Source: a virus
Virus genome (UHGV): UHGV-0390358
Length of the DNA: 40,847 nt
Direction: 5' to 3' (one strand)
Shown here one piece after another: positions 1,825 to 36,734 of the stretch. The notes below the pieces were generated by a model. That model had not been told where the DNA came from. It searched no databases and was given only the letters and a program-made list of their open reading frames with translations. Each line of letters starts with the position of its first letter. The stretch's first letter is position 1. Both the position numbers and the translations under genes were made by a program.

Positions 1825-2511
1825 TCAGAAGACCCCTGCCTTGTCGTTGATGTATTCCGCGTGGGTCTGGATATCACGCAGGCATTTACTCACACCGACG
1901 ATGTAGCAGAACATGGTGGTCAGTTCCGCCGCCGCGCCCGATACGTCGTGCCCGTCTTCCTGTAACTGGTTCAGCAGATTCATCAGCAGTGAGTTCTCCG
2001 TCAGGCCGAGAACACCAGACGGCGAGTGAATCAAACTGCGGTAGCCGGGCTTCAGCGGGGCGCTGTAGGTGTTGTTCTCTATCTTCATTGCCTGCATCAC
2101 TGCTGACGCCGTGGCGTTGGCTACCTGGTCGGCAACCATCTTTATGCGTTCTTCCTGCGGGAGCGAGTTTTTAATGTAACTTCCGGTGCGGCGGATCTGA
2201 GGAAGAACCTCACCCGTAACCCATTTACGAAAGCGGTAGGGGATAGTGCCTGGTGTCACCGCATCGCGGCAGCGGAGGATCAGTGTGTAGAGGCCTGACT
2301 CGTTGATAATATTGGTTTCGCCTTGACGGCCTAAGTTAAATTTAGCCCTTTCATCATCATCAAGAGATTTTATTGACATAGTGGGGTTTGTCAGTTGAAG
2401 AGCTTTAATAACGTCTTTGGCAACAAACCAAGGATTTCCATCAATAACAATGGCTCGAATGGTTGCCTCTGATTCAAAATGAAAAACAGATGGGGTTACG
2501 TTAGCAGTCAT
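1825..2511 (-). CDS. Bro-N domain + KilA-C (phage antirepressor-type) domain protein
   Basis: N-terminal FHFESEATIRAIVIDGNPWFVAKDVIKAL matches the Bro-N signature; C-terminal domain is paralogous to the 3657..3914 protein; start taken at internal ATG 2511 (MTANV...) rather than the ORF-track start 2664. Confidence 0.65.
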   Translation of the reverse strand: MTANVTPSVFHFESEATIRAIVIDGNPWFVAKDVIKALQLTNPTMSIKSLDDDERAKFNLGRQGETNIINESGLYTLILRCRDAVTPGTIPYRFRKWVTGEVLPQIRRTGSYIKNSLPQEERIKMVADQVANATASAVMQAMKIENNTYSAPLKPGYRSLIHSPSGVLGLTENSLLMNLLNQLQEDGHDVSGAAAELTTMFCYIVGVSKCLRDIQTHAEYINDKAGVF

Positions 2512-2905
2512 AGTGATCACCTTTGTAGTTAGGTTAATCACCACTACCGACGCCAATCGGTTGGTGGTGAACTGTGCAGGGTTGGCGTAACCGGCTACAA
2601 AGGACCCGGCGCACCTTTCGGTGCCCCCACACAGCCCACCATAGAATAGGTGCGCTTTACACATAAAAAAACCGCTTATGCGGCATATGTGCCTCTGTAG
2701 TAACCCGGGACGCCAATCCCGGCACTGGATTTTGCCAGTGCCCGATTACTATGGCACAAGAGGAGTGCGATGTAAATTTACCGCAAAGGTAATGATAAGC
2801 GCGAAGAAATATTAAAATCAACCGTATTTGGTTGATTGCGTTTAACGCTTGATCACCTGAAAGCAAGATATTACCTTTAAGGTAATGTTATTGTGAGGAA
2901 AAGCA

Positions 2906-3634
2906 ATGGAAGTTTTCTGGATAGTTGTTGGTGTGGTTGCGGTGATTATTTACGTTATCAACCAGAACAAGACTAAGATCTCTGATCGTACGGTCGTTAA
3001 TCAGAACAAAACGATAAAGACCGAAGATGGGGAGGTAACGATTAGTCGTACACAGGTGATAGAACACACATCTACTCAGTTTCAAAAAACTGGAGGTAAC
3101 GCGCCTGATATTTCCGTACCTCCTGCTTATGATAGTGCGGTAATCCAGACATATTATAAACAGCAGGAGTTTGCAAAAGAGAGGCAACTGATTCAGCCAA
3201 AGCCGTTTACAGCTGAGCTTCCACCTGGAGTGTCAACGCGTCCGGCATATCATGGAAGATTCCCTGGTGATGACATATCGTCTCAGTCATCTAAAAAAGC
3301 ACCTCAGGCAGTATCAGAGCCAGCAAGAATACCTTCTGTATCGCCGCCAAAAGAAGAATCAGCTAACAGAGTTTCAAGTGGCCGCAAGCAGTGTTTGCGA
3401 TGCAGAATAAACCTTCCATATGACAAATTCCGGAAATCGTCAAAAAATCCAGATGGATTGACTAAGTGGTGTGCAAGGTGTCTCGATGGCCCAAAGAATA
3501 CACGCCATATGAAGTGGTGCCCAATTTGTAATGTCCGCAGAAAACGGACCAGCTTTTACCCTAATAATCAAAATGCGGACGGCTTAATGGCATGGTGCAA
3601 AACGTGCTGGGACGAGCACAAAGCGAAACGATAG
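2906..3634 (+). CDS. Membrane-anchored protein with two C-terminal CxxC...CxxC zinc-ribbon-like repeats, unknown function
   Basis: ATG at 2906 with GAGGA ribosome-binding site; N-terminal TM helix; repeats CLRC..DGLTKWCARC and CPIC..DGLMAWCKTC; operator palindrome 2871-2885 immediately upstream. Confidence 0.6.
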   Translation: MEVFWIVVGVVAVIIYVINQNKTKISDRTVVNQNKTIKTEDGEVTISRTQVIEHTSTQFQKTGGNAPDISVPPAYDSAVIQTYYKQQEFAKERQLIQPKPFTAELPPGVSTRPAYHGRFPGDDISSQSSKKAPQAVSEPARIPSVSPPKEESANRVSSGRKQCLRCRINLPYDKFRKSSKNPDGLTKWCARCLDGPKNTRHMKWCPICNVRRKRTSFYPNNQNADGLMAWCKTCWDEHKAKR

Positions 3635-3656
3635 GCCGCTCTTGCGGCCTTTAAAT

Positions 3657-3914
3657 TTACCGGGTTTGTTTTCGTAATTGTTCGGCACAATAGTCGAGAT
3701 GTGTTTGCAGATCCTGCATAGACATCTGTGAGCTGGTGACGTAGTTAATCAGTGCAGTCAGTTCGGCAAGTGGGCCATCGACATTAAATCCATCCTTATC
3801 GAGATCTCGGAGTAATTTCATCAAGTGCGATCCCTCCACCAGTGACCTGACGCCTCCCGGCGTGTGAATCCTTTCGGTAAATCCGTTTTCCAGTGGATAG
3901 TGATACTGCTGCAT
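3657..3914 (-). CDS. Stand-alone KilA-C-like small protein; candidate SOS-inducible antirepressor
   Basis: Paralogous to the C-terminus of the 1825..2511 protein (HTPGGVRSLVEGSHLMKLLRDL... versus HSPSGVLGLTENSLLMNLLNQL...); GGAG ribosome-binding site favours the ATG at 3914 over 3929; LexA box 6 bp upstream. Confidence 0.6.
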   Translation of the reverse strand: MQQYHYPLENGFTERIHTPGGVRSLVEGSHLMKLLRDLDKDGFNVDGPLAELTALINYVTSSQMSMQDLQTHLDYCAEQLRKQTR

Positions 3915-3934
3915 CTTAATCTTCTCCATGCAAT

Positions 3935-4110: not shown

Positions 4111-7100
4111 ATGACGGTCTCAACCGAAGTTGACCACAACGAATACACCGGTAACGGCGTTACGACATCGTTTCCGTATACTTTTCGAATTTTCAGAAAA
4201 TCAGACCTGGTTGTTCAGGTGTCTGACCTGAACGGGAACGTAACAGAATTGGTTCTGGATACCGGTTATACGGTAACTGGGGCGGGCACTTATAGTGGCG
4301 GTTCTGTGGTTCTTCCGTCTCCGCTTGCTACTGGATGGCGAATTACGATAGATCGTGTGCTTGATGTAGTGCAGGAGACAGACCTTCGCAATCAGGGAAA
4401 ATTTTTCCCCGAAGTGCATGAAGATGCCTTTGACTACCTGACGATGCTGATCCAGCAATGTTTTGGGTGGTTCAGACGTGCATTGATGAAACCATCTTTG
4501 CTTGCAAAATATTACGATGCAAAGCAAAACAAAATTTCTAACCTTGCAGATCCATCATTTGAGCAGGACGCTGTAAATAATCGCTCAATGCGTAATTATG
4601 TCGATGCTGCAATCGCCGGGGTTGTTGGTGGTTTTGGTTGGTTTATTCAGTATGGTTCTGGGGCTGTGTACCGAACGTTCCAGGATAAAATGCGTGATGC
4701 TATTAGCCCCAAAGATTTTGGAGCTGTTGGTGATGGTATAAATGACGATTCCACTGCAATAAGCGCGTGCCTTGAAGCCTCATCTCCAGTTTATAAAATT
4801 GACGGATTAGGGCTTACTTTTAAAGTATCAACTCTTCCGGATGTCAGTCGATTTAAAAATGCTCGTTTTTTATTTGAGAGAATACCGGGTCAGCCTCTTT
4901 TTTATGCTTCTGAAGATTTTATCCAGGGAGAGTTATTTAAAATTACAGATACACCGTGGTACAACGCCTGGACGCAGGATAAAACGTTTGTATATGACAA
5001 TGTCATCTATGCGCCTTTTATGGCTGGAGACCGCCATGGTGTAAATAACCTCCATGTTGCATGGGTTCGCTCAGGAGATGACGGGAAGACCTGGACAACG
5101 CCGGAATGGCTTACAGATTTACATGAAAACTATCCCACAGTTAACTATCACTGCATGTGTATGGGGGTTGTCAGAAATCGCCTTTTTGCTGTAATTGAGA
5201 CGCGGACCGTGAGCGGAAATAAACTGCAGGTTGCAGAGTTGTGGGATCGCCCAATGAGTCGCAGCCTTCGCGTTTATGGTGGTATAACGAAAGCAGCAAA
5301 TCAGCAAGTCGCTTATATTCGCATTACTGATCACGGATTATTTGCTGGTGATTTTGTCAACTTCTCAAACTCTGGTGTTACAGGTGTTACCGGGAATATG
5401 ACGGTGACTACTGTTATTGATAAAAATACTTTTACAGTTACGACGCAAAATACCCAGGATGTGGATCAGAATAACGAGGGTAGATACTGGAGTTTTGGTA
5501 CATCATTTCACTCTTCACCATGGAGAAAAACCAGTCTTGGAACTATTCCTTCTTTTGTTGACGGAAGCACTCCTGTTACTGAGATTCACAGTTTTGCGAC
5601 GATTAGCGATAACAGTTTTGCTGTTGGCTACCATAATGGTGATATTGGTCCACGCGAGCTTGGGATACTCTATTTCTCTGATGCTTTCGGTTCTCCTGGT
5701 AGCTTTGTTCGCAGACGCATACCTGCAGAATATGAGGCGAATGCATCTGAGCCATGTGTAAAATATTATGATGGCATTCTGTATCTGACGACCAGGGGGA
5801 CATTAAGTACTCAACCCGGTAGTTCATTGCACAGAAGCTCTGATTTAGGTACATCATGGAATTCTCTTCGCTTCCCAAATAATGTTCATCACTCAAACCT
5901 TCCTTTTGCCAAAGTTGGCGATGAGCTGATTATTTTTGGCAGTGAGCGCGCATTTGGTGAGTGGGAAGGAGGAGAGCCTGATAACCGTTATGCAGGAAAT
6001 TATCCAAGAACATTTATGACCAGAGTTAACGTCAATGAGTGGAGTCTGGATAATGTAGAGTGGGTTAATGTTACTGATCAGATTTATCAGGGCGGAATAG
6101 TTAACTCTGCGGTTGGTGTTGGTTCAGTTTGTATCAAAGACAACTGGCTGTACTACATTTTCGGTGGGGAAGACTTTCTAAACCCATGGAGCATAGGGGA
6201 TAACAACAGAAAATATCCTTATGTTCACGATGGTCACCCGGCTGATTTGTATTGTTTCAGGGTGAAAATTAAACAGGAAGAATTTGTTTCAAGGGATTTT
6301 GTCTACGGAGCCACTCCTAACAGAACGCTTCCTACTTTTATGTCGACGTCAGGCGTGAGGACGGTTCCTGTACCCGTTGATTTCACAGATGATGTTGCCG
6401 TCCAGTCACTGACTGTCCATGCAGGTACATCAGGACAAGTTCGCGCGGAAGTCAAACTTGAGGGTAATTACGCCATTATTGCGAAGAAAGTACCGTCTGA
6501 TGATGTTACCGCTCAGAGATTAATCGTTAGCGGCGGTGAAACAACGTCTTCAGCAGATGGTGCAATGATAACGTTGCATGGTTCCGGAAGCAGTACTCCA
6601 CGTCGCGCGGTATATAACGCACTCGAACATCTTTTTGAGAACGGAGATGTTAAACCTTATCTTGATAATGTAAATGCTCTTGGTGGTCCGGGAAACAGGT
6701 TCTCGACAGTTTATCTTGGCTCCAATCCTGTGGTTACCAGTGACGGAACATTAAAGACAGAGCCGGTCTCTCCTGACGAAGCATTGCTGGATGCCTGGGG
6801 TGACGTCAGGTATATCGCTTATAAATGGCTGAACGCTGTCGCTATAAAGGGGGAAGAAGGGGCGAGGATACATCATGGTGTAATCGCGCAGCAACTTCGT
6901 GATGTTCTTATTTCTCACGGACTCATGGAAGAAGAAAGCACAACATGCCGCTATGCCTTTCTTTGCTATGACGATTATCCCGCAGTATATGATGACGTCA
7001 TTACTGGCCAAAGGGAAATGCCGCTGACTGATAATGACGGGAGCATCATTGTTGATGAGGATGATAATCCAGTGATGGTAATGGAAGACATCATTGAGCG

Positions 7101-7230
7101 CGTTGAAATAACGCCAGCAGGATCTAGATGGGGGGTCAGACCTGATCTCTTATTCTATATCGAGGCAGCATGGCAGCGCAGAGAAATGGATAAGATAAAA
7201 GAGCGGATTCAGTCTCTGGAAGAACGTTAA
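4111..7230 (+). CDS. Tailspike endosialidase (endo-N-acetylneuraminidase) with C-terminal intramolecular chaperone domain
   Basis: 1039 aa; conserved podovirus tailspike N-terminal head-binding region; sialidase Asp-boxes SGDDGKTW and SSDLGTSW; C-terminal HGVIAQQLRDV... autoproteolytic chaperone-type domain. Confidence 0.85.
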   Translation: MTVSTEVDHNEYTGNGVTTSFPYTFRIFRKSDLVVQVSDLNGNVTELVLDTGYTVTGAGTYSGGSVVLPSPLATGWRITIDRVLDVVQETDLRNQGKFFPEVHEDAFDYLTMLIQQCFGWFRRALMKPSLLAKYYDAKQNKISNLADPSFEQDAVNNRSMRNYVDAAIAGVVGGFGWFIQYGSGAVYRTFQDKMRDAISPKDFGAVGDGINDDSTAISACLEASSPVYKIDGLGLTFKVSTLPDVSRFKNARFLFERIPGQPLFYASEDFIQGELFKITDTPWYNAWTQDKTFVYDNVIYAPFMAGDRHGVNNLHVAWVRSGDDGKTWTTPEWLTDLHENYPTVNYHCMCMGVVRNRLFAVIETRTVSGNKLQVAELWDRPMSRSLRVYGGITKAANQQVAYIRITDHGLFAGDFVNFSNSGVTGVTGNMTVTTVIDKNTFTVTTQNTQDVDQNNEGRYWSFGTSFHSSPWRKTSLGTIPSFVDGSTPVTEIHSFATISDNSFAVGYHNGDIGPRELGILYFSDAFGSPGSFVRRRIPAEYEANASEPCVKYYDGILYLTTRGTLSTQPGSSLHRSSDLGTSWNSLRFPNNVHHSNLPFAKVGDELIIFGSERAFGEWEGGEPDNRYAGNYPRTFMTRVNVNEWSLDNVEWVNVTDQIYQGGIVNSAVGVGSVCIKDNWLYYIFGGEDFLNPWSIGDNNRKYPYVHDGHPADLYCFRVKIKQEEFVSRDFVYGATPNRTLPTFMSTSGVRTVPVPVDFTDDVAVQSLTVHAGTSGQVRAEVKLEGNYAIIAKKVPSDDVTAQRLIVSGGETTSSADGAMITLHGSGSSTPRRAVYNALEHLFENGDVKPYLDNVNALGGPGNRFSTVYLGSNPVVTSDGTLKTEPVSPDEALLDAWGDVRYIAYKWLNAVAIKGEEGARIHHGVIAQQLRDVLISHGLMEEESTTCRYAFLCYDDYPAVYDDVITGQREMPLTDNDGSIIVDEDDNPVMVMEDIIERVEITPAGSRWGVRPDLLFYIEAAWQRREMDKIKERIQSLEER

Positions 7231-9643: not shown

Positions 9644-10894
9644 GTGCTTACCGATACAAAATTAAAAAACCTCAAGCCGCAGGACAAACTGTACAAGGTC
9701 TCCGATCGTGACGGGCTGTATGTAGCTGTGCTTACGTCAGGCACGGTCTCGTTTCGCTATGACTACCGTATCAACGGTCGCCGCGAAACACTGGTAATCG
9801 GGCAGTATGGGCGTGACGGTATCAGCCTGGCAGAAGCGCGAGAAGAACTGATTGCTGCAAAGAAGCTGCTTAAAGCAGGCCAGTCACCGGCTGCGGCTAA
9901 ACGTGACGGTATCAAAAAGATTCGTGGTGCCGAGACGTTTGCGGTACATACCGACAGTTATATGAAACACGTCATCCTGGCTGACAGTACCCGCGCAATG
10001 AAACAGGCGGTGATCGACCGTGACATACTTCCGGTTCTTGGCAATAAAATGATGGCTGAAATTACCACATCGATGGTTCGTGATTTGTGTGACCGGATTG
10101 TCGAACGCGGTGGCCGGGCAACAGCAGTACAGGCCAGGGAGATCATCAGCAGCGTATACCGTCACGCCAATGACCGTGGTCATGGTTTGTTTAATCCTGC
10201 GGCTGACATTAAACCTTCGTCTATCGCCATATTTAAACCACGAGAGCGAACACTGACACCAGAAGAAATTGGCCTGTTCTTCCGCACGCTGGATGCCATT
10301 GGTGCTATGGGCACTATGAAAATGGCTTTAAAGCTGGTGCTTATCACTATGGTTCGTAAAGGCGAATTCACCAATGCAACGTGGGATGAAATAGATTTTA
10401 AAAAATGGACATGGACAATTCCTTCAGACCGCATGAAGGGAAGCCGGGCGCACGTTATTTACCTGCCTAAACAGGCACAGGATATATTGGTTGGGTTGCA
10501 GATGTGCGCTGGTGGAAGTGAATATCTGGTTCCTGGTCGTTACAATTTCCGGAAGCCATTATCTAATGCCGCGCTGAACTCTCTGATCGACAGAACGGTG
10601 AAAATAATAAATGAAGATGGTGAGCATATTCAGGACTTCACCGTACACGATATGCGCCGTACAGCCAGTACGTTGTTGCATGAGGCTGGTTATCCTTCAG
10701 ACTGGATTGAAAAGGCTCTGGCACATGAGCAGAAAGGTGTGCGCGCCGTATATAACAAAGCGGAATACGCCAGACAGCGCGCCTACATGTTGCAGCAGTG
10801 GGCCGATATGATTGATTCCTGGATTAACGGGGAGCATACGGATCTGATTCCGTTCTCCCCGTCGAAGTTTGAGAAGTGGATGGCGGGGGAATAA
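9644..10894 (+). CDS. int: Tyrosine site-specific integrase
   Basis: GTG start at 9644; N-terminal LTDTKLKNLKP...YRINGRRETLVIG arm-binding-type domain; C-terminal catalytic region HDMRRTASTLL...AVYNKAEY. Confidence 0.85.
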   Translation: MLTDTKLKNLKPQDKLYKVSDRDGLYVAVLTSGTVSFRYDYRINGRRETLVIGQYGRDGISLAEAREELIAAKKLLKAGQSPAAAKRDGIKKIRGAETFAVHTDSYMKHVILADSTRAMKQAVIDRDILPVLGNKMMAEITTSMVRDLCDRIVERGGRATAVQAREIISSVYRHANDRGHGLFNPAADIKPSSIAIFKPRERTLTPEEIGLFFRTLDAIGAMGTMKMALKLVLITMVRKGEFTNATWDEIDFKKWTWTIPSDRMKGSRAHVIYLPKQAQDILVGLQMCAGGSEYLVPGRYNFRKPLSNAALNSLIDRTVKIINEDGEHIQDFTVHDMRRTASTLLHEAGYPSDWIEKALAHEQKGVRAVYNKAEYARQRAYMLQQWADMIDSWINGEHTDLIPFSPSKFEKWMAGE

Positions 10895-14974: not shown

Positions 14975-15559
14975 TTATTGTTTGCTTTTTTCGTTCTGGT
15001 TGATGACAAATTCAATGTAACTTTCGATCTTTGCTTTCTCGGTTTCGGGTAACAATGCGTAGCGTGAGCGGTCATAGTTGATAGTCGCAGGGTCGTGCGG
15101 GTGAATCAGTAGTTCATATCCGTGACGCCCGAATGCGGATGCAACATTCTCCAGGGTGGAAATGGAAACGCTGACCTCATTGTTTAACAGGCGGCTGATT
15201 GTCACCTGGGCGACGCCGGATGCGCGGTGAAGTTTTCCCTGTGTTGAAAGGTCGCGGCTTTCGCTCATCCAGCGTTCCAGGTTGTGAGCCGCCAGCTGAC
15301 CTATATCGCTCGGGCCGACAGGCTGAAAACCCTCCTGAGAAAGCGAACGATCAATATCAAGCCAGTTACGGGGTTTATTGGCGGCAGCTTCAATTTTTCG
15401 TGCAACCTGGTCGCCGATAACCTTCTTGCCAAGAGCCCAGCGGTTTACCAGATTTGCCTGAGTTCCAAGTTTTTCTGCCATCCGCGTCTGAACACCATTG
15501 AATTCACGGTCGATCAAGTCGTTGAGATTTTGCCTGCGGACGTCCTGGATACTTTTCAT
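14975..15559 (-). CDS. Prophage repressor with two tandem XRE-type HTH domains and no peptidase S24 autocleavage domain
   Basis: 194 aa; HTH-like segments QTRMAEKLGTQANLVNRWALGK and VAQVTISRLLNNEVSVSISTLENVASAFG; divergent from Cro-like gene across an operator-containing region. Confidence 0.7.
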   Translation of the reverse strand: MKSIQDVRRQNLNDLIDREFNGVQTRMAEKLGTQANLVNRWALGKKVIGDQVARKIEAAANKPRNWLDIDRSLSQEGFQPVGPSDIGQLAAHNLERWMSESRDLSTQGKLHRASGVAQVTISRLLNNEVSVSISTLENVASAFGRHGYELLIHPHDPATINYDRSRYALLPETEKAKIESYIEFVINQNEKSKQ

Positions 15560-24530: not shown

Positions 24531-24607
24531 TGGCGTGGCATGCAGGATTCGAACCTGCGACCAACCGCTTAGAAGGCGGTTGCTCTGTCCAACTGAGCTA
24601 ATGCCAC
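24531..24607 (-). tRNA. tRNA-Arg (anticodon UCU)
   Basis: Reverse complement folds as a 77-nt cloverleaf: 7-bp acceptor stem GTGGCAT/ATGCCAC, D-arm GCTC..GAGC, anticodon loop CTTCTAA, T-arm GCAGG-TTCGAAT-CCTGC, 3' CCA; differs from E. coli argU in the acceptor stem. Confidence 0.9.
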
Positions 24608-33676: not shown

Positions 33677-34221
33677 TGTGCGATCCGGTTATTGCTGGTG
33701 GCGCAATGCTCGCCATGAGTGGCATTCAGGCATACACCCAGTACCAACAGGGAAAGTATGCCTCGAAGGTTGCAGAAGCGAACGCAGATATAGCCACAGC
33801 TCAGGCAAATGATGCAATAAACAGAGGTAACGCTGAAGCTGAGCAACGGCGCAGAGAGACCCGACAGCGGCTTGGTACACAGGCGGCGACAATGGGGGCT
33901 ACCGGCGCTGATTTATCTACAGGTAACGCGCTGGATATATTTGGCGACACTGCCCAGTTTGGCGCTCTTGATTCTCTGACGACGGTGAATAACGCGCAAC
34001 GCGAGGCTTACGGTTATCAGGTTCAGGCTGCCAACTATAAAGCAGAAGCCAGTTCAGCCCGTAAACAGGGGAATGTGGGAGCAGCAACAACATTGCTCAC
34101 TGCGCCTCTGAAGGCATACGGTGCGTACCAGATGTTTGGTGGGACGTGGAGTCCGTTTACTCAAAGCACCCCTGCGCCAATCGGGGCAGCAGCAGGAACC
34201 AGATTACCCGGAGGATTATAA
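33676..34221 (+). CDS. Internal virion protein (gp14-like position)
   Basis: 181 aa, Ala/Gln-rich. Confidence 0.4.
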   Translation: MCDPVIAGGAMLAMSGIQAYTQYQQGKYASKVAEANADIATAQANDAINRGNAEAEQRRRETRQRLGTQAATMGATGADLSTGNALDIFGDTAQFGALDSLTTVNNAQREAYGYQVQAANYKAEASSARKQGNVGAATTLLTAPLKAYGAYQMFGGTWSPFTQSTPAPIGAAAGTRLPGGL

Positions 34222-36734
34222 TGCCAGTCGTACCAACAGTATCCGGCCGTCAGGTTCAGAGCCGTGGAGTTCAGTCAGCAGGCTTGCAGACGTTTTCTCA
34301 GCCAGGTATTGGTGATGCTTTTGTTCGGGCAGGGACAGAGGCAATTGATGTTTTTGGTCAGGCAAAACAGCGTGCCAATATCGCTCTGGCTCAGGAGGCA
34401 TCTCTTAACCTCAGTCAGATAAGCAGTGATCTGCTGAATAATCCTGAAACAGGATTGCTTAACCTGAAAGGGAAAAATGCTATTGGAAAAGGTCAGGAGT
34501 ATACGCAGCAGTTTGATGCTCAGGTCGAACAACTGGCTATGTCGCTGCCGGATGAACAGGCTCGTAATGCTTTCATGCAGCAGGCGCAGCAGCAGCGCAT
34601 TCAGTTCACTACGCAGGCAGGGCGGCACGAGATAGGGCAAATAAATGCCTACGAAGAAGGCCAGTTTCAGGCTACGCTGCTGAACAATGGTAAAAATGCC
34701 GCAGCATTGTATGGCGACAACGCCGCATACGTATTGGCTAATAAGCAAACTTTCCAGCAAATTGAGGATTACGGCATTGCACATGGCTGGAGTGACGAGC
34801 AAATCCAGGCCAAGAAAATCGAGTTTAAAGAGAAGGTTGCTGATGCTGCATTGTCCCAGTGGTCGGCAAACAATGCGACCGCATTCATCCAAAGTAATGG
34901 CGAGTTAAGTGATACTGCTGCTGGAGCTCGCCGTGCTGTAGCAGATAGTGACTCTTCCGAGCGTGCCCGTGGCATACGCAACAATAACCCAGGAAATCTC
35001 GAATACAGCAAAACTAATCCGTGGGTAGGCCAGACCGGTGATGATGGTCGATTTGCTAAATTCGAAACACCTGAACACGGGATTCGTGCATTAGGGCGGA
35101 ACCTGATGTCGTATCAGAGGCAGGGTATTGATACCGTCAGCGAGATAATTAATCGCTGGGCACCGCCTACTGATAAAAATGACACTATGTCGTATATCAA
35201 AGCAGTGTGCGAACAACTTGGCGTTTCTGCTGATGAGCCTCTCGATGCATCTAATCCTGATACCCTGAAGGCGCTTTGTGCAGCCATTATCCATCATGAG
35301 AACGGTAGCCAGCCATACAGTGATCAGCAGTTAACTGCTGGTGTCAGTGCAGCACTTGGTTTATCAACAATTCCAACCAACACCAAACGCTATACCGGTA
35401 ATGCAGCATTCGATGCGGCATCTCCTGAGGCGCAGGCAAGTTTTATGCGACAGGCGGATCAACTGCGTCGGCAGCAGCAGGCTGAATATAAAACGATGAT
35501 TGACAGCAAGGTTCGCGATGCGACAGCTGCGTATATGCGGGGCGTTGAATTTCCTAACCCACCTGGTGAGGCTGATTTTATTGCAGCTTATGGAGTCAGA
35601 GAAGGAAACCTGCGATATACCGAGTTCAGAAATACGCAAATCGCCGGACAGTATATAGGCTCTTTCCGCAACATGCCGACAAGCAGCATTACAGCATATG
35701 TTGAGCAATTACGCCCGGATACTGGTGAGACAGGGGAGGGTTATGCGGCACGAGCCGCTCTTTATGACAACGTTGTGTCGGCTGCAAGTCAGGTGATAAA
35801 GCAGCGACAGGCTGATCCTGTACAGTTCTCTCTTGCCGCCGGACAGGCAAAGCCTATCGACATGAGCAATAAGGATAACTTTGGACAGAGCGTTGCCTTG
35901 CGTGCTGCTCAGGTCAGTGACCTTGCTAAGTCATATGGCACTCCACTGACGTTCTTTTCCAAAGACGAGGCCAATCAGATCGGTGTTTTCTTTCGTGATG
36001 CTCCAGTTTCCCAACAGGCAGCATATCTCGATACCATCAGGCAGAGCACTGGTGGTGGGCAGGTGTATATGTCAGCACTACAGCAGATCAGTGCCAACGC
36101 TCCATCTGCTGCCGTTGCCGGGATACTGATGGACAAGCCTGGTGGTATTTTGGCAGAAAAAAACTGGTTTAATCCGGATGTTTCCGTGTCTCCTGAAACC
36201 GCTGCGCAGACAATTCTTACTGGCGCGGCGGCTCGTAAAGGTACTGATGATGCGAAAGGTATTCCGATGCCTAAAGATGCTGATCTTCGCCTTGAGTTTT
36301 CTGACATGGTGAAGGATGCATTTGCTGGTGATGCTCAGGGGGCATCAATGGCATACGAGATCGCAAAGGACTATTACGCTGGTGTGATGGCGAAAAAAGG
36401 CGTGATATCAGGCGAAATTGACACTGATATCTGGAAGCAGGCTGTTAACGTAGCTACAGGTGGCGTGCATGACTATAACGGAATGGGGAATGTCCTTTTG
36501 CCGTGGGGAATGTCTGCAGAGCAATTCGATAAGCAGGTTAATCAGGCTTGGAATGAACAAGTGGTCGGCACCGGGATAAAAACACCGCCTGGTCAGTATG
36601 GTTTGCAAAGTTACGGCGATAGTCAGTACCTGGTGAAACTTGGTACTGGTTATCTGCTGAAAGATGATGGTTCTCCTGTTGTTCTTGATCTGACACAGAA
36701 GCGTCAGAGATTCTCCGGAGATATTCCGCAATGA
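34221..36734 (+). CDS. Large internal (ejected) virion protein with conserved central domain; possible virion-associated peptidoglycan hydrolase
   Basis: ATG at 34221 with GGAGGA ribosome-binding site, overlapping previous stop; conserved-looking block RGIRNNNPGNLEYSKTNPWVGQ... that I cannot assign by eye. Confidence 0.5.
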   Translation: MPVVPTVSGRQVQSRGVQSAGLQTFSQPGIGDAFVRAGTEAIDVFGQAKQRANIALAQEASLNLSQISSDLLNNPETGLLNLKGKNAIGKGQEYTQQFDAQVEQLAMSLPDEQARNAFMQQAQQQRIQFTTQAGRHEIGQINAYEEGQFQATLLNNGKNAAALYGDNAAYVLANKQTFQQIEDYGIAHGWSDEQIQAKKIEFKEKVADAALSQWSANNATAFIQSNGELSDTAAGARRAVADSDSSERARGIRNNNPGNLEYSKTNPWVGQTGDDGRFAKFETPEHGIRALGRNLMSYQRQGIDTVSEIINRWAPPTDKNDTMSYIKAVCEQLGVSADEPLDASNPDTLKALCAAIIHHENGSQPYSDQQLTAGVSAALGLSTIPTNTKRYTGNAAFDAASPEAQASFMRQADQLRRQQQAEYKTMIDSKVRDATAAYMRGVEFPNPPGEADFIAAYGVREGNLRYTEFRNTQIAGQYIGSFRNMPTSSITAYVEQLRPDTGETGEGYAARAALYDNVVSAASQVIKQRQADPVQFSLAAGQAKPIDMSNKDNFGQSVALRAAQVSDLAKSYGTPLTFFSKDEANQIGVFFRDAPVSQQAAYLDTIRQSTGGGQVYMSALQQISANAPSAAVAGILMDKPGGILAEKNWFNPDVSVSPETAAQTILTGAAARKGTDDAKGIPMPKDADLRLEFSDMVKDAFAGDAQGASMAYEIAKDYYAGVMAKKGVISGEIDTDIWKQAVNVATGGVHDYNGMGNVLLPWGMSAEQFDKQVNQAWNEQVVGTGIKTPPGQYGLQSYGDSQYLVKLGTGYLLKDDGSPVVLDLTQKRQRFSGDIPQ

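What the first reader, a model, noticed from the sequence alone, without database searches (positions are those of the whole stretch)
2512..2777. About 260 bp structured non-coding leader upstream of the Bro-N gene
No convincing ORF, but several stable hairpins (GCACC-tttc-GGTGC, GCACTGG-attttg-CCAGTGC) and a repeated GACGCCAATC motif; it could encode a small regulatory RNA or a long structured 5' UTR.
Basis: seen in the sequence. Interest (0 to 1): 0.3.

Follow-up and report, generated by a model that had tools for sequence, protein, structure and literature searches.

The report
Antisense RNA switch controlling phage antirepressor
The "structured leader" is a well-known type of phage immunity module, in which two small RNAs (an IsrK-like RNA and a c4 antisense RNA) lie ahead of an antirepressor gene and the c4 RNA pairs with that gene's ribosome-binding site; this is an ordinary, unannotated copy, not a new kind of element.

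Summary
Both hairpins and the repeated GACGCCAATC are at the stated places, but the functional strand is the minus strand, the same as the Bro-N gene (ATG 2511).

Rfam places two curated families here, both above their gathering scores:
- isrK: 2741..2665, 74.7 bits.
- C4 antisense RNA: 2646..2560, 79.5 bits.

The repeated 10-mer is the complement of the two "a" target sites (UUGGCGU), which pair with the c4 internal loop ACGCCAA. The c4 hairpin loop CCUUUGUAG pairs with CUACAGAGG inside the IsrK-like RNA and with CUACAAAGG on the Shine-Dalgarno sequence of the antirepressor gene.

P1 (c4-icd-ant) and Gifsy-1 (isrK-orf45-anrP) have the same layout. In 102 distinct copies from viral contigs plus P1:
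- The fold keeps 92.5% of pairs, and 32 of 48 pairs show compensatory changes.
- The a':a2 and a1:a' contacts are 98-100% paired, with compensatory changes in 5 of 7 pairs.

Most likely mechanism (inferred by homology): c4 blocks translation of the antirepressor, and the short terminated upstream RNA carries decoy sites that can titrate c4.

Verdict: a new member of a known kind, with low interest. Side observations are a dispersed operator-like palindrome next to the promoter, and combinatorial a/b "barcodes" across phages.

The parts
2778..2792 (.). Operator-like palindrome TTACC-GCAAA-GGTAA, next to the -35 of the leader promoter. Candidate binding site of the phage repressor.
   Evidence: The window holds 16 copies of TTACC-N5-GGTAA (at most 1 mismatch) against 0.67 expected. 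Pairs of copies flank the HTH_3 repressor-like ORF 14975-15559. Phage Tyrion has a copy at the same position with a different spacer. Function is inferred.
2748..2776 (-). Sigma-70-like promoter of the leader: -35 TTTACA (2776..2771), 17-nt spacer, TG-extended -10 CATAGT (2753..2748). Predicted transcription start near G2741.
   Evidence: Consensus scan. The -10 aligns with a conserved TATAnT block in 103 homologues and with the P1c4 (P51b) -10 annotated in P1. Not tested experimentally.
2665..2741 (-). IsrK-like small RNA unit. Hairpin 1 is 2741..2722 (loop CAAAAU). Hairpin 2 is 2721..2706 and presents a1. A single-stranded stretch carries b1. An intrinsic terminator follows (stem 2684..2671, U-run to 2665).
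   Evidence: Rfam RF01394 isrK, 74.7 bits (gathering 50), full-length model. RF03163 c4-a1b1, 44.1 bits (gathering 46.7), over 2754..2702. Terminator scan. Hairpin 1 is 90% paired with 7 of 7 pairs compensatory. A terminator-like hairpin plus U-run sits at this position in 100 of 117 loci.
2710..2716 (-). a1 site UUGGCGU (P1 nomenclature), loop of hairpin 2, complementary to c4 a'.
   Evidence: Read from the sequence. The a1:a' helix is 97.9% paired across 103 sequences with 5 of 7 pairs compensatory. Duplex energy -15.6 kcal/mol.
2692..2700 (-). b1 site CUACAGAGG, complementary to the c4 b' loop (9 pairs, one of them G.U).
   Evidence: (-14.2 kcal/mol). Each locus's own loop finds an upstream complement of 7 nt or more in 58% of loci, against 6% for mismatched loci.
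2560..2646 (-). c4 antisense RNA gene. By alignment with the annotated P1 c4 RNA, the predicted mature RNA is 2640..2563 (78 nt).
   Evidence: Rfam RF01695, 79.5 bits (gathering 45), E 4e-14. The minimum-free-energy fold equals the Rfam consensus, z = -4.3. The basal stem is 99.1% paired with 11 of 17 pairs compensatory, and the tetraloop hairpin 99.4% with 4 of 5.
2595..2603 (-). b' = CCUUUGUAG in the loop of the second c4 hairpin.
   Evidence: Complementary to b1 and b2.
2582..2588 (-). a' = ACGCCAA in the single-stranded internal loop of c4.
   Evidence: Covaries with a1 and a2.
2547..2560 (-). Hairpin CCGA-UUGGCG-UCGG presenting a2 (UUGGCGU, 2556..2550).
   Evidence: The a':a2 helix is 99.6% paired across 103 sequences, with 5 of 7 pairs compensatory.
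2538..2544 (-). GUGGUGA, able to pair with the 3' strand of the c4 basal stem (UCACCAC, 2570..2564). This alternative helix places a2 in a loop in the unprocessed transcript.
   Evidence: 95.6% paired across 103 sequences, 5 of 7 pairs compensatory, slid controls 30-70%. Predicted in the minimum-free-energy fold of 2570..2505.
2517..2528 (-). b2 site CUACAAAGG (2528..2520) overlapping the Shine-Dalgarno AAGGUGA (2523..2517) of the antirepressor gene.
   Evidence: (-12.6 kcal/mol). Each locus's own loop finds a downstream complement of 7 nt or more in 87.5% of loci, against 6% for mismatched loci, at a fixed distance and followed by a start codon.
1825..2511 (-). Regulated gene: Bro-N antirepressor (228 aa), ATG 2511..2509.
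   Evidence: Pfam Bro-N, E 5e-20. PHROG 130 'anti-repressor Ant', E 1e-56. RefSeq annotates the identical 228-aa CDS.

Best explanation
The region is the RNA control leader of an antirepressor operon, of the P1 immI (c4) / Gifsy-1 isrK type, read on the minus strand.

Proposed sequence of events:
1. A promoter at 2776..2748 starts transcription near 2741. It sits next to an operator-like palindrome.
2. Many transcripts stop at the intrinsic terminator (2684..2665). This gives a roughly 77-nt IsrK-like RNA carrying sites a1 (UUGGCGU) and b1 (CUACAGAGG).
3. Read-through transcripts contain the c4 RNA (about 2640..2563). In P1 this RNA is cut out of its precursor.
4. c4 exposes two single-stranded elements, b' (CCUUUGUAG, hairpin loop) and a' (ACGCCAA, internal loop). 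These pair with a2 (2556..2550) and b2 (2528..2520) just downstream.
5. b2 covers the Shine-Dalgarno sequence of the Bro-N antirepressor gene, so c4 binding blocks its translation. This keeps the prophage repressed and makes the lysogen immune to phages with the same a/b sequences.
6. The short upstream RNA carries the same two sites, so it can compete with a2/b2 for c4 and relieve the block.

Shown here: the sequence elements, their family membership, the fold and the complementarities, and their covariation in relatives.

Inferred from P1 and Gifsy-1: transcription, termination, processing, translational repression and the decoy role.
For: Family membership:
- Rfam isrK and C4 both score above gathering, and c4-a1b1 scores just below it.
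- The same three-part layout, scored by the same models, occurs in P1. There the record annotates a1, b1, c4 RNA, a2, b2, icd and ant.
- It also occurs in Gifsy-1 upstream of anrP.
- The downstream gene is a Bro-N antirepressor.

Complementarity in the window:
- b':b2 has 9 Watson-Crick pairs on the SD (-12.6 kcal/mol).
- a':a2 has 7 pairs (-10.3 kcal/mol).
- b':b1 gives -14.2 and a':a1 -15.6 kcal/mol.
- Cross-combinations are weak, at -4 to -6 kcal/mol.

Covariation in relatives:
- 120 c4 copies from viral contigs fall into 65 distinct loop combinations. Target sites sit at fixed distances, and the SD-proximal one is followed by a start codon.
- Each locus's own loops find complements far more often than loops from other loci do.
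- a':a2 is 99.6% and a1:a' 97.9% paired, with compensatory changes in 5 of 7 pairs each.
- The fold is 92.5% paired with 32 of 48 pairs compensatory.
- The nearest diverged relative, phage Tyrion, has changed a1, a' and a2 together (GGUCU/AGACC/GGUCU against GGCGU/ACGCC/GGCGU) while keeping b.

Published experiments on the Gifsy-1 homologue (PMC4825925):
- The isrK promoter drives anrP transcription, but anrP is not translated.
- IsrK supplied in trans raises anrP translation 139-fold.
- IsrK G28A and G31A, which lie in a1, abolish that trans-activation.
- C162U and C159U, which lie in a', derepress translation.
Against: - No expression data for this phage were available. The promoter and terminator are consensus matches only.
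- Unlike P1, there is no icd-like ORF between b2 and ant.
- Unlike Gifsy-1, there is no orf45-like ORF ending at the ant start. The conserved AUGG frame stops after 15 codons. The translational-coupling step described for both model systems therefore cannot apply as such.
- The Gifsy-1 authors explain their data by alternative cis structures of the long mRNA, not by a trans-acting c4 repressor. When they co-expressed the downstream RNA, growth arrest was stronger rather than weaker.
- The c4-a1b1 model scores 44.1 bits, just under its gathering score of 46.7.
Confidence: 0.85

Rival explanations
1. The leader works purely in cis, as proposed for Gifsy-1. The read-through mRNA folds into an inactive structure in which a1/b1 pair with a'/b', and the short RNA opens it. 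No processed c4 RNA acts as a trans repressor.
For: duplexfold gives an extended a1b1:c4 interaction of -56.8 kcal/mol. Native-gel and compensatory-mutation data for Gifsy-1 support a cis helix between IsrK positions 28/31 and positions 162/159.
Against: a2 and b2 covary with a' and b' as tightly as a1 and b1 do, which a model without a2/b2 pairing does not explain. In Gifsy-1 the double mutants that restore the cis helix stay at 224 and 327 units against 4 for wild type, as expected if the a':a2 pairing, which was not compensated, is what represses. In P1 the c4 RNA is annotated as a separate 77-nt RNA that binds a2/b2.
Confidence: 0.1
2. c4 acts mainly by causing premature transcription termination, as the related CI RNA of satellite phage P4 does, rather than by blocking translation initiation.
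For: C4 and the P4-type RNAs are treated as structural relatives, and the Gifsy-1 authors raise this possibility. In Gifsy-1 the transcriptional fusion rises 8-fold with IsrK. In P1, translational repression is followed by transcriptional polarity (my own knowledge of Biere et al. 1992, not checked here).
Against: b2 lies exactly on the SD, 5 nt from the AUG, in the window and in most of the 120 copies. In Gifsy-1 the translational effect (139-fold) far exceeds the transcriptional one (8-fold).
Confidence: 0.1
3. The region is protein-coding. It would encode either a small leader peptide (the 32-aa GUG ORF 2632..2534, annotated as an 'ash family protein' in phage ZX5) or an N-terminal extension of Ant (the in-frame ORF from ATG 2664).
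For: Both ORFs exist. ZX5 annotates a 37-aa CDS there. The 32-aa ORF matches PHROG 20442, E 1e-10. Gifsy-1 orf45, which overlaps c4, was reported to be translated.
Against: Neither ORF has a Pfam or NCBIfam match. RefSeq annotates only the 228-aa Ant and leaves the leader empty. Substitutions in relatives are compensatory for RNA helices. The ORF from the conserved AUGG is only 15 codons long here. The Gifsy-1 paper itself, as summarised, notes that the nucleotide sequence of orf45 is conserved while its amino-acid sequence is not.
Confidence: 0.03

Closest known systems
Bacteriophage P1/P7 immI operon: c4 antisense RNA with a1/b1 and a2/b2 sites, icd, ant1/2 (Citron & Schuster 1990; annotated in NC_005856)
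   Same: The order of parts is the same: promoter, a1, b1, a terminator-like hairpin, c4, a2, b2 on an SD, then the antirepressor. The same Rfam models match (C4 68.8 bits, c4-a1b1 51 bits, isrK 35 bits in P1). The -10 of the leader promoter aligns with P1's P1c4/P51b. An operator-like site sits by the promoter, as Oc4 does in P1.
   Different: In P1, b2 covers the SD of icd, a 73-codon ORF that precedes ant. Here b2 covers the SD of the antirepressor itself. The a/b sequences differ (P1: UUGACAG and GUUAGUGA). The antirepressor is a Bro-N protein in a podovirus of the genus Uetakevirus, not P1 Ant1/2. The upstream terminator is a strong isrK-type one here, scoring above the isrK gathering score, whereas P1 scores below it.
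Salmonella Gifsy-1 isrK-orf45-anrP locus (Hershko-Shalev et al. 2016, PMC4825925), including STnc1160
   Same: IsrK above gathering is followed by C4 above gathering, then an a2 hairpin, GGUGGUGA, and b2 on the SD of an antirepressor-like gene. The a sites are identical (UUGGCGU/ACGCCAA). The short RNA ends at an intrinsic terminator.
   Different: The b specificity differs (Gifsy-1 loop UCGGUGAU). Gifsy-1 has a 45-codon ORF that starts at the conserved AUGG of c4 and overlaps the anrP start (AUGA). In the window that frame stops after 15 codons. AnrP belongs to a different protein family (it begins MTTQISVETLSP...). The downstream consequence in Gifsy-1 (AntQ toxicity) has no counterpart examined here.
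P22 immI: sar antisense RNA with Arc and Mnt repressors controlling ant
   Same: An antirepressor gene near the tail-spike gene of a temperate podovirus is kept off post-transcriptionally by a small RNA that pairs with its ribosome-binding region (for sar).
   Different: sar is transcribed from the opposite strand across the ant start, so it is a true cis-antisense RNA. Here the regulator is encoded on the same strand upstream and pairs through two short loop sequences. Nothing other than isrK and C4 reached an Rfam gathering score in this region, and no arc- or mnt-like genes are present.
Satellite phage P4 CI RNA with seqA/seqC
   Same: A small RNA processed from the leader of its own operon pairs with complementary sequences located upstream and downstream of itself.
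   Different: P4 CI causes premature transcription termination of replication genes, not a translation block of an antirepressor. It was not compared by sequence here.

Membership tests
C4 antisense RNA (Rfam RF01695; P1/P7 c4) | Covariance-model score at or above the curated gathering score over the full model | tested here: met
   79.5 bits against 45, model positions 1-87 of 87, E 4e-14.
C4 antisense RNA (Rfam RF01695; P1/P7 c4) | Long basal stem enclosing two hairpins and a single-stranded internal loop, supported by covariation | tested here: met
   The minimum-free-energy fold equals the consensus. The basal stem is 99.1% paired with 11 of 17 pairs compensatory, and the first hairpin 99.4% with 4 of 5.
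C4 antisense RNA (Rfam RF01695; P1/P7 c4) | Two exposed elements (a', b') complementary to sites a2 and b2 just downstream, with b2 at a ribosome-binding site | tested here: met
   a' ACGCCAA pairs with a2 UUGGCGU. b' CCUUUGUAG pairs with b2 CUACAAAGG, which overlaps the SD AAGGUGA, 5 nt before the AUG. The a':a2 helix is 99.6% paired with compensatory changes.
C4 antisense RNA (Rfam RF01695; P1/P7 c4) | A second set of sites (a1, b1) upstream of c4 on the same transcript | tested here: met
   a1 is 2716..2710 and b1 is 2700..2692. a1:a' is 97.9% paired.
C4 antisense RNA (Rfam RF01695; P1/P7 c4) | Lies upstream of an antirepressor gene in a temperate phage | tested here: met
   Bro-N / PHROG 'anti-repressor Ant' ORF at 2511..1825. 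The window is a Uetakevirus-like phage with a 416-aa ORF at 9644-10894 (annotated as integrase in related phage records) and an HTH repressor-like gene.
C4 antisense RNA (Rfam RF01695; P1/P7 c4) | Excised from a precursor as a roughly 77-nt RNA (RNase P at the 5' end), and represses ant synthesis in trans | not testable with these tools
   Needs RNA and genetic experiments. Only the near-invariant CCACC at the predicted 3' end was seen.
P1 immI operon architecture | An icd-like ORF whose SD is the b2 target and whose translation is needed for ant | tested here: not met
   b2 sits directly on the SD of the 228-aa Bro-N ORF, with no ORF in between. Across 103 complete downstream ORFs the lengths range from 33 to 382 aa, so both arrangements exist.
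isrK (Rfam RF01394; Gifsy-1 IsrK) | Covariance-model score at or above the gathering score, with two 5' hairpins, a linker and a Rho-independent terminator | tested here: met
   74.7 bits against 50, model positions 1-77 of 77. Terminator found by the scan. Fold z = -2.45.
isrK (Rfam RF01394; Gifsy-1 IsrK) | Own promoter, giving a short terminated form and a read-through mRNA form | tested here: inconclusive
   A promoter-like site lies at the right distance and aligns with a conserved -10 block and with P1's P51b. The transcript isoforms cannot be tested here.
isrK (Rfam RF01394; Gifsy-1 IsrK) | A downstream orf45-like ORF translationally coupled to the antirepressor gene | tested here: not met
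   The frame from the conserved AUGG (2642) stops after 15 codons. The 32-aa GUG ORF ends 23 nt before the ant AUG.
isrK (Rfam RF01394; Gifsy-1 IsrK) | Hfq binding | not testable with these tools
   No binding data are available.
c4-a1b1 motif (Rfam RF03163) | Covariance-model score at or above the gathering score | tested here: not met
   44.1 bits against 46.7 over 2754..2702, a narrow miss. Both hairpins of the motif are present, and P1 (51 bits) and Gifsy-1 (48.1 bits) pass.
P22 immI (sar RNA, arc, mnt) | An opposite-strand antisense RNA across the ant start, plus Arc and Mnt repressor genes | tested here: not met
   No Rfam match other than isrK, C4 and c4-a1b1 had an E-value below 0.5 in 2300-3000. 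No arc- or mnt-like ORFs were seen.

The most novel reading that the evidence does not exclude
The short terminated IsrK-like RNA may be a dedicated anti-antisense decoy for c4. The switch would then have three RNAs: decoy, antisense RNA and mRNA.

The two short pairing sequences may also act as independently exchangeable 'barcodes':
- 65 combinations occur among 120 copies.
- The same b' loop is found with three different a' sequences, and the reverse also occurs.

These barcodes would set up a network of cross-immunity and cross-induction between unrelated prophages in one cell. For example, this Uetakevirus shares its a sequence with Gifsy-1 and its b sequence with phage Tyrion.

The published Gifsy-1 mutant data appear to fit this model better than the purely cis-structural one. 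Restoring a1:a' pairing leaves 224 to 327 units against 4 for wild type, and a2 was not compensated in those mutants.
Probability: 0.4. Interest if true: 0.5.

Novelty: new member of a known kind. Interest (0 to 1): 0.22.

Why it matters
This finding settles what a blank intergenic stretch is. Related leader sequence occurs in 941 of 5426 complete E. coli genomes, and in the RefSeq record inspected and the other 11 top hits no RNA gene is annotated over it. The stretch is an RNA immunity switch for a prophage antirepressor, and therefore a determinant of induction and superinfection immunity in a K1-capsule-specific (endosialidase) temperate phage.

The comparative data also link two literatures that a 2025 review still lists separately, P1 c4 and Salmonella IsrK. 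They show that the pairing sequences vary combinatorially, which predicts which prophages can silence or awaken each other.

None of this changes the known principle.

Tried and rejected
- **Naming.** At first I called the loop element a' and the internal-loop element b'. The P1 record uses the opposite names, so print swapped labels. The report uses P1 names.
- **Misplaced helices.** My first structure string for the alignment placed some helices wrongly and was unbalanced. It was corrected.
- **b-site counts.** Column-based counting of the b helices gave only 53-60% paired. MAFFT cannot align the hypervariable b sites. I relied instead on the test of own-locus against other-locus loops.
- **P1 papers.** The classic P1 papers (PMC523184, PMC204598) are not held. 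P1 facts come from the GenBank record and are otherwise marked as my own knowledge.
- **'Ash family' annotation.** I tested whether the 'ash family protein' annotated over c4 in ZX5 has a Pfam or NCBIfam model. It has none.
- **24B_1.** I tested whether the microRNA-size 24B_1 of phage Phi24B, which regulates an antirepressor, is the same locus. It is not: 24B_1 maps to the lom region, while the c4 module of Phi24B lies upstream of ant/roi at 18.3-18.5 kb.
- **Frame from the AUGG.** I checked whether the ORF from the conserved AUGG of c4 is a conserved coding frame. It is in frame with the downstream start in 39 of 64 groups and uninterrupted in 26, but a single 138-nt scaffold dominates and the frame is closed in the window. 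I left this unexplained.
- **Chance hairpins.** Rejected on the shuffles and the covariation.
Full report
**1. What is in the sequence**

Its ATG is at 2511..2509 and its stop at 1825, giving 228 aa (Pfam Bro-N E 5e-20; PHROG 'anti-repressor Ant' E 1e-56). RefSeq annotates the identical CDS in E. coli genomes.

- GCACC-tttc-GGTGC at 2612-2625.
- GCACTGG-attttg-CCAGTGC at 2722-2741.
- GACGCCAATC exactly twice, at 2549-2558 and 2709-2718.

**2. Identification**

A scan of the whole window against Rfam gives three hits above gathering thresholds. Two of them fill the leader on the minus strand:
- isrK (RF01394): 2741..2665, 74.7 bits against 50.
- C4 antisense RNA (RF01695): 2646..2560, 79.5 bits against 45.

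A more permissive scan adds the c4-a1b1 motif (RF03163) over 2754..2702 at 44.1 bits, just below its 46.7 threshold.

- The first hairpin is the GAAA-tetraloop hairpin of c4.
- The second hairpin is the 5' hairpin of the IsrK-like RNA.
- The repeated 10-mer is the complement of two hairpin loops, UUGGCGU.

The consensus scans find a sigma-70-like promoter (TTTACA, 17 nt, TG-CATAGT; 2776..2748). They also find an intrinsic terminator (stem 2684..2671 and a run of seven U ending at 2665), which is the 3' end of the isrK match.

**3. Anatomy, in P1 nomenclature**

The P1 GenBank record annotates the promoters P2c4/P51a (with the C1 operator Oc4) and P1c4/P51b. It then annotates a1, b1, the 77-nt c4 RNA, a2, b2, icd and ant1/2. 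The same Rfam models match P1 in the same order.

Transferring those names, the window has the following parts:

| Part | Sequence | Coordinates (minus strand) | Position |
|---|---|---|---|
| a1 | UUGGCGU | 2716..2710 | loop of the second IsrK hairpin |
| b1 | CUACAGAGG | 2700..2692 | single-stranded linker |
| b' | CCUUUGUAG | 2603..2595 | loop of the second c4 hairpin |
| a' | ACGCCAA | 2588..2582 | internal loop of c4 |
| a2 | UUGGCGU | 2556..2550 | loop of a small hairpin right after c4 |
| b2 | CUACAAAGG | 2528..2520 | overlaps the SD AAGGUGA, 5 nt before the AUG |

Short-duplex energies:
- b':b2 -12.6 kcal/mol.
- b':b1 -14.2 kcal/mol.
- a':a2 -10.3 kcal/mol.
- a':a1 -15.6 kcal/mol.
- Wrong combinations, -4 to -6 kcal/mol.

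CTACARAGG occurs five times in the window against 0.36 expected, and three of the five are b1, b' (as its complement) and b2.

By alignment with P1, the mature c4 would be 2640..2563. That 78-nt RNA folds into the Rfam consensus at -44.7 kcal/mol, z = -4.3.

**4. Relatives and covariation**

The window is a Uetakevirus-type (epsilon15/phiV10-like) temperate phage, close to Escherichia phages Phi05_1387 B and vB_EcoP_ZX5.

A scan of viral contigs with a pattern for the invariant c4 core, which leaves both specificity elements free, returned 120 loci. These hold 120 credible c4 copies falling into 65 different b'/a' combinations.

The complement of each locus's own loops appears in nearly every locus at fixed distances. 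Distances are measured from the core pattern. print a and b swapped.
- a1 near -95.
- b1 near -79.
- a2 near +22.
- b2 near +50 to +54, followed by an SD and a start codon.

Share of loci with a complement run of at least 7 nt, own loops against loops from other loci:

| Site | Own loops | Other-locus loops |
|---|---|---|
| a2 | 98% | about 6% |
| a1 | 88% | about 6% |
| b2 | 87.5% | about 6% |
| b1 | 58% | about 6% |

I aligned 102 distinct copies plus P1 and counted pairs for named structures:

| Structure | Cells paired | Pairs with compensatory change |
|---|---|---|
| Cis fold | 92.5% (about 40% when slid) | 32 of 48 |
| a':a2 | 99.6% | 5 of 7 |
| a1:a' | 97.9% | 5 of 7 |

The b helices are undercounted in this column-based count (53-60% paired) because the hypervariable b sites do not align.

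The closest diverged relative, phage Tyrion, has changed a1, a' and a2 together and kept b.

A terminator-like hairpin plus U-run lies between b1 and c4 in 100 of 117 loci.

One further conserved helix is notable. The 3' strand of the c4 basal stem (UCACCAC, 2570..2564) can also pair with GUGGUGA (2544..2538). This puts a2 in a loop in the unprocessed transcript. It is 95.6% paired, with 5 of 7 pairs compensatory.

**5. Comparison with Gifsy-1**

In the Gifsy-1 record the layout is as follows:
- IsrK: 34316..34240.
- C4 at 69 bits: 34214..34131.
- An a2 hairpin identical to the window's.
- GGUGGUGA.
- b2 on the SD of anrP.

The 'orf45' of Hershko-Shalev et al. starts at +107. That is the conserved AUGG at the 5' end of c4, so orf45 lies on top of the c4 gene. 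The stable downstream RNA the authors call STnc1160 is presumably c4. The authors themselves compare the locus with P4 seqA/CI.

Their experiments:
- The isrK promoter transcribes anrP, but it is not translated.
- IsrK in trans raises anrP translation 139-fold.
- IsrK G28A and G31A lose this activity. By position these bases lie in a1.
- C162U and C159U derepress translation to 484 and 926 units, against 4 for wild type. By position these bases lie in a'.
- Restoring a1:a' pairing lowers this only to 224 and 327 units.

My inference is that the residual derepression is what a c4:a2 repression model predicts, because a2 was not compensated. This is an inference from their Table 1, not their conclusion.

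**6. Mechanism proposed for the window**

*Shown here:*
- The elements, their fold and their complementarities.
- Their covariation in relatives.
- Their position in front of an antirepressor gene.

*Inferred by homology:*
- Transcription starts near 2741.
- Part of it terminates at 2665, giving a short RNA carrying a1 and b1.
- Read-through yields c4, which in P1 is a 77-nt RNA processed from the precursor. RNase P is involved, from my knowledge of Hartmann et al. 1995, not checked here.
- c4 pairs with a2 and b2 and occludes the SD of ant.
- The short RNA competes for c4 and relieves the block.

*Differences from both model systems:* there is no icd between b2 and ant, and no orf45-like ORF reaching the ant start. 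The AUGG frame stops after 15 codons, and the 32-aa GUG ORF ends 23 nt upstream. Repression here would act directly on the antirepressor's own initiation site. The ORF directly under b2 ranges from 33 to 382 aa across loci, so both direct and relayed arrangements are normal for the family.

**7. Rivals**

- **Purely cis structural switch.** The extended a1b1:c4 complementarity supports it (-56.8 kcal/mol). It leaves the tight covariation of a2 and b2 unexplained.
- **Termination-based (P4-like) action.** It may add to translational repression, but it is unlikely to replace it given the SD overlap.
- **Coding explanations.** These are weak. The leader ORFs have no Pfam or NCBIfam support, RefSeq annotates nothing there, and the substitution pattern is RNA-like.

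**8. Novelty and interest**

The kind of element has been known since 1990 (P1 c4) and 2016 (IsrK), and is curated in Rfam. Sequences similar to this leader occur in 941 of 5426 complete E. coli genomes, 40 of them at 99% identity or more. Only the Bro-N CDS is annotated under the matches listed.

This is a new, unannotated member of a known kind, and interest is low.

Two points go slightly beyond the textbook picture. First, IsrK and the c4 a1/b1 leader are the same element, although a 2025 review still lists IsrK and c4 separately. Second, the a and b pairing sequences are reassorted combinatorially among phages of very different types: Uetakevirus, Stx phages, Gifsy-1, P1 and APSE.

Noticed in passing
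window 1744, 2778, 2871, 3992, 9587, 14841, 14903, 15615, 15663, 16000, 17908, 17970, 21361, 21379, 24312, 24930 (each 15 nt): The palindrome TTACC-N5-GGTAA occurs 16 times (11 perfect) against 0.67 expected. Most copies are intergenic and often come in pairs 18-62 nt apart. Pairs lie on both sides of the HTH_3 repressor-like ORF 14975-15559, and one copy sits next to the -35 of the isrK/c4/ant promoter. It looks like a dispersed operator of the phage repressor, comparable to the C1 operators of P1.
   Followed up: partly
window 3657-3929 (-): A 90-aa ORF is a stand-alone copy of the C-terminal domain of the Bro-N antirepressor (PHROG 450, E 6e-48; the same family matches residues 146-226 of Ant). 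In ZX5 and Tyrion its homologue lies directly upstream of the isrK promoter.
   Followed up: partly
window 2906-3634 (+), with terminator-like hairpin 3633-3650: A 242-aa protein with an N-terminal hydrophobic stretch and a Cys-rich C-terminus (PHROG 6762; weak endonuclease VII, Lar and Stc1-like zinc-ribbon matches) is absent at this position in ZX5 and Tyrion. It appears to be an insertion between the 90-aa ORF and the leader promoter. An operator-like palindrome at 2871-2885 lies just upstream of it.
   Followed up: no
L001 (phage vB_EcoP_ZX5) 2674-2787; window 2534-2632 (-): The ZX5 GenBank record annotates a 37-aa 'ash family protein' CDS on top of the c4 RNA gene. Neither it nor the window's 32-aa equivalent matches any Pfam or NCBIfam model. 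It is probably a mis-annotated RNA gene.
   Followed up: yes
L125 (Gifsy-1) 34075-34316 (-): The published orf45 of the isrK locus starts at the conserved AUGG at the 5' end of a C4 RNA (69 bits) and overlaps that RNA. The published mutant values for a' and a1 fit a c4:a2 repression model, which the paper did not test.
   Followed up: partly
L003-L122, frame starting at the conserved AUGG of c4: In 39 of 64 sequence groups the AUGG at the 5' end of c4 is in frame with the downstream start codon, and in 26 the frame is uninterrupted. A single 138-nt scaffold dominates these cases. The frame is closed in the window and in P1. Its significance is unknown.
   Followed up: partly
L036 9643-11239; L064; L097; L121: Some viral contigs carry two or three c4 modules with different a/b combinations. 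In L036 they are spaced 656 nt apart, each ahead of a roughly 120-aa ORF. This looks like tandem arrays of differently barcoded modules.
   Followed up: no
window 4111-7230 (+): The tail fibre is an endosialidase with all four endosialidase Pfam domains plus the C-terminal chaperone domain. The phage therefore probably targets K1-capsulated E. coli.
   Followed up: no
window 24534-24607 (-): A tRNA gene (Rfam tRNA, 73.3 bits) lies inside the phage window, near two of the operator-like palindromes.
   Followed up: no
L126 (phage Phi24B) 18308-18484: Stx phages, including Phi24B, carry a c4-type module in the nin region upstream of ant and roi. It is a different locus from the published 24B_1 small RNA, which is said to regulate an antirepressor.
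   Followed up: partly
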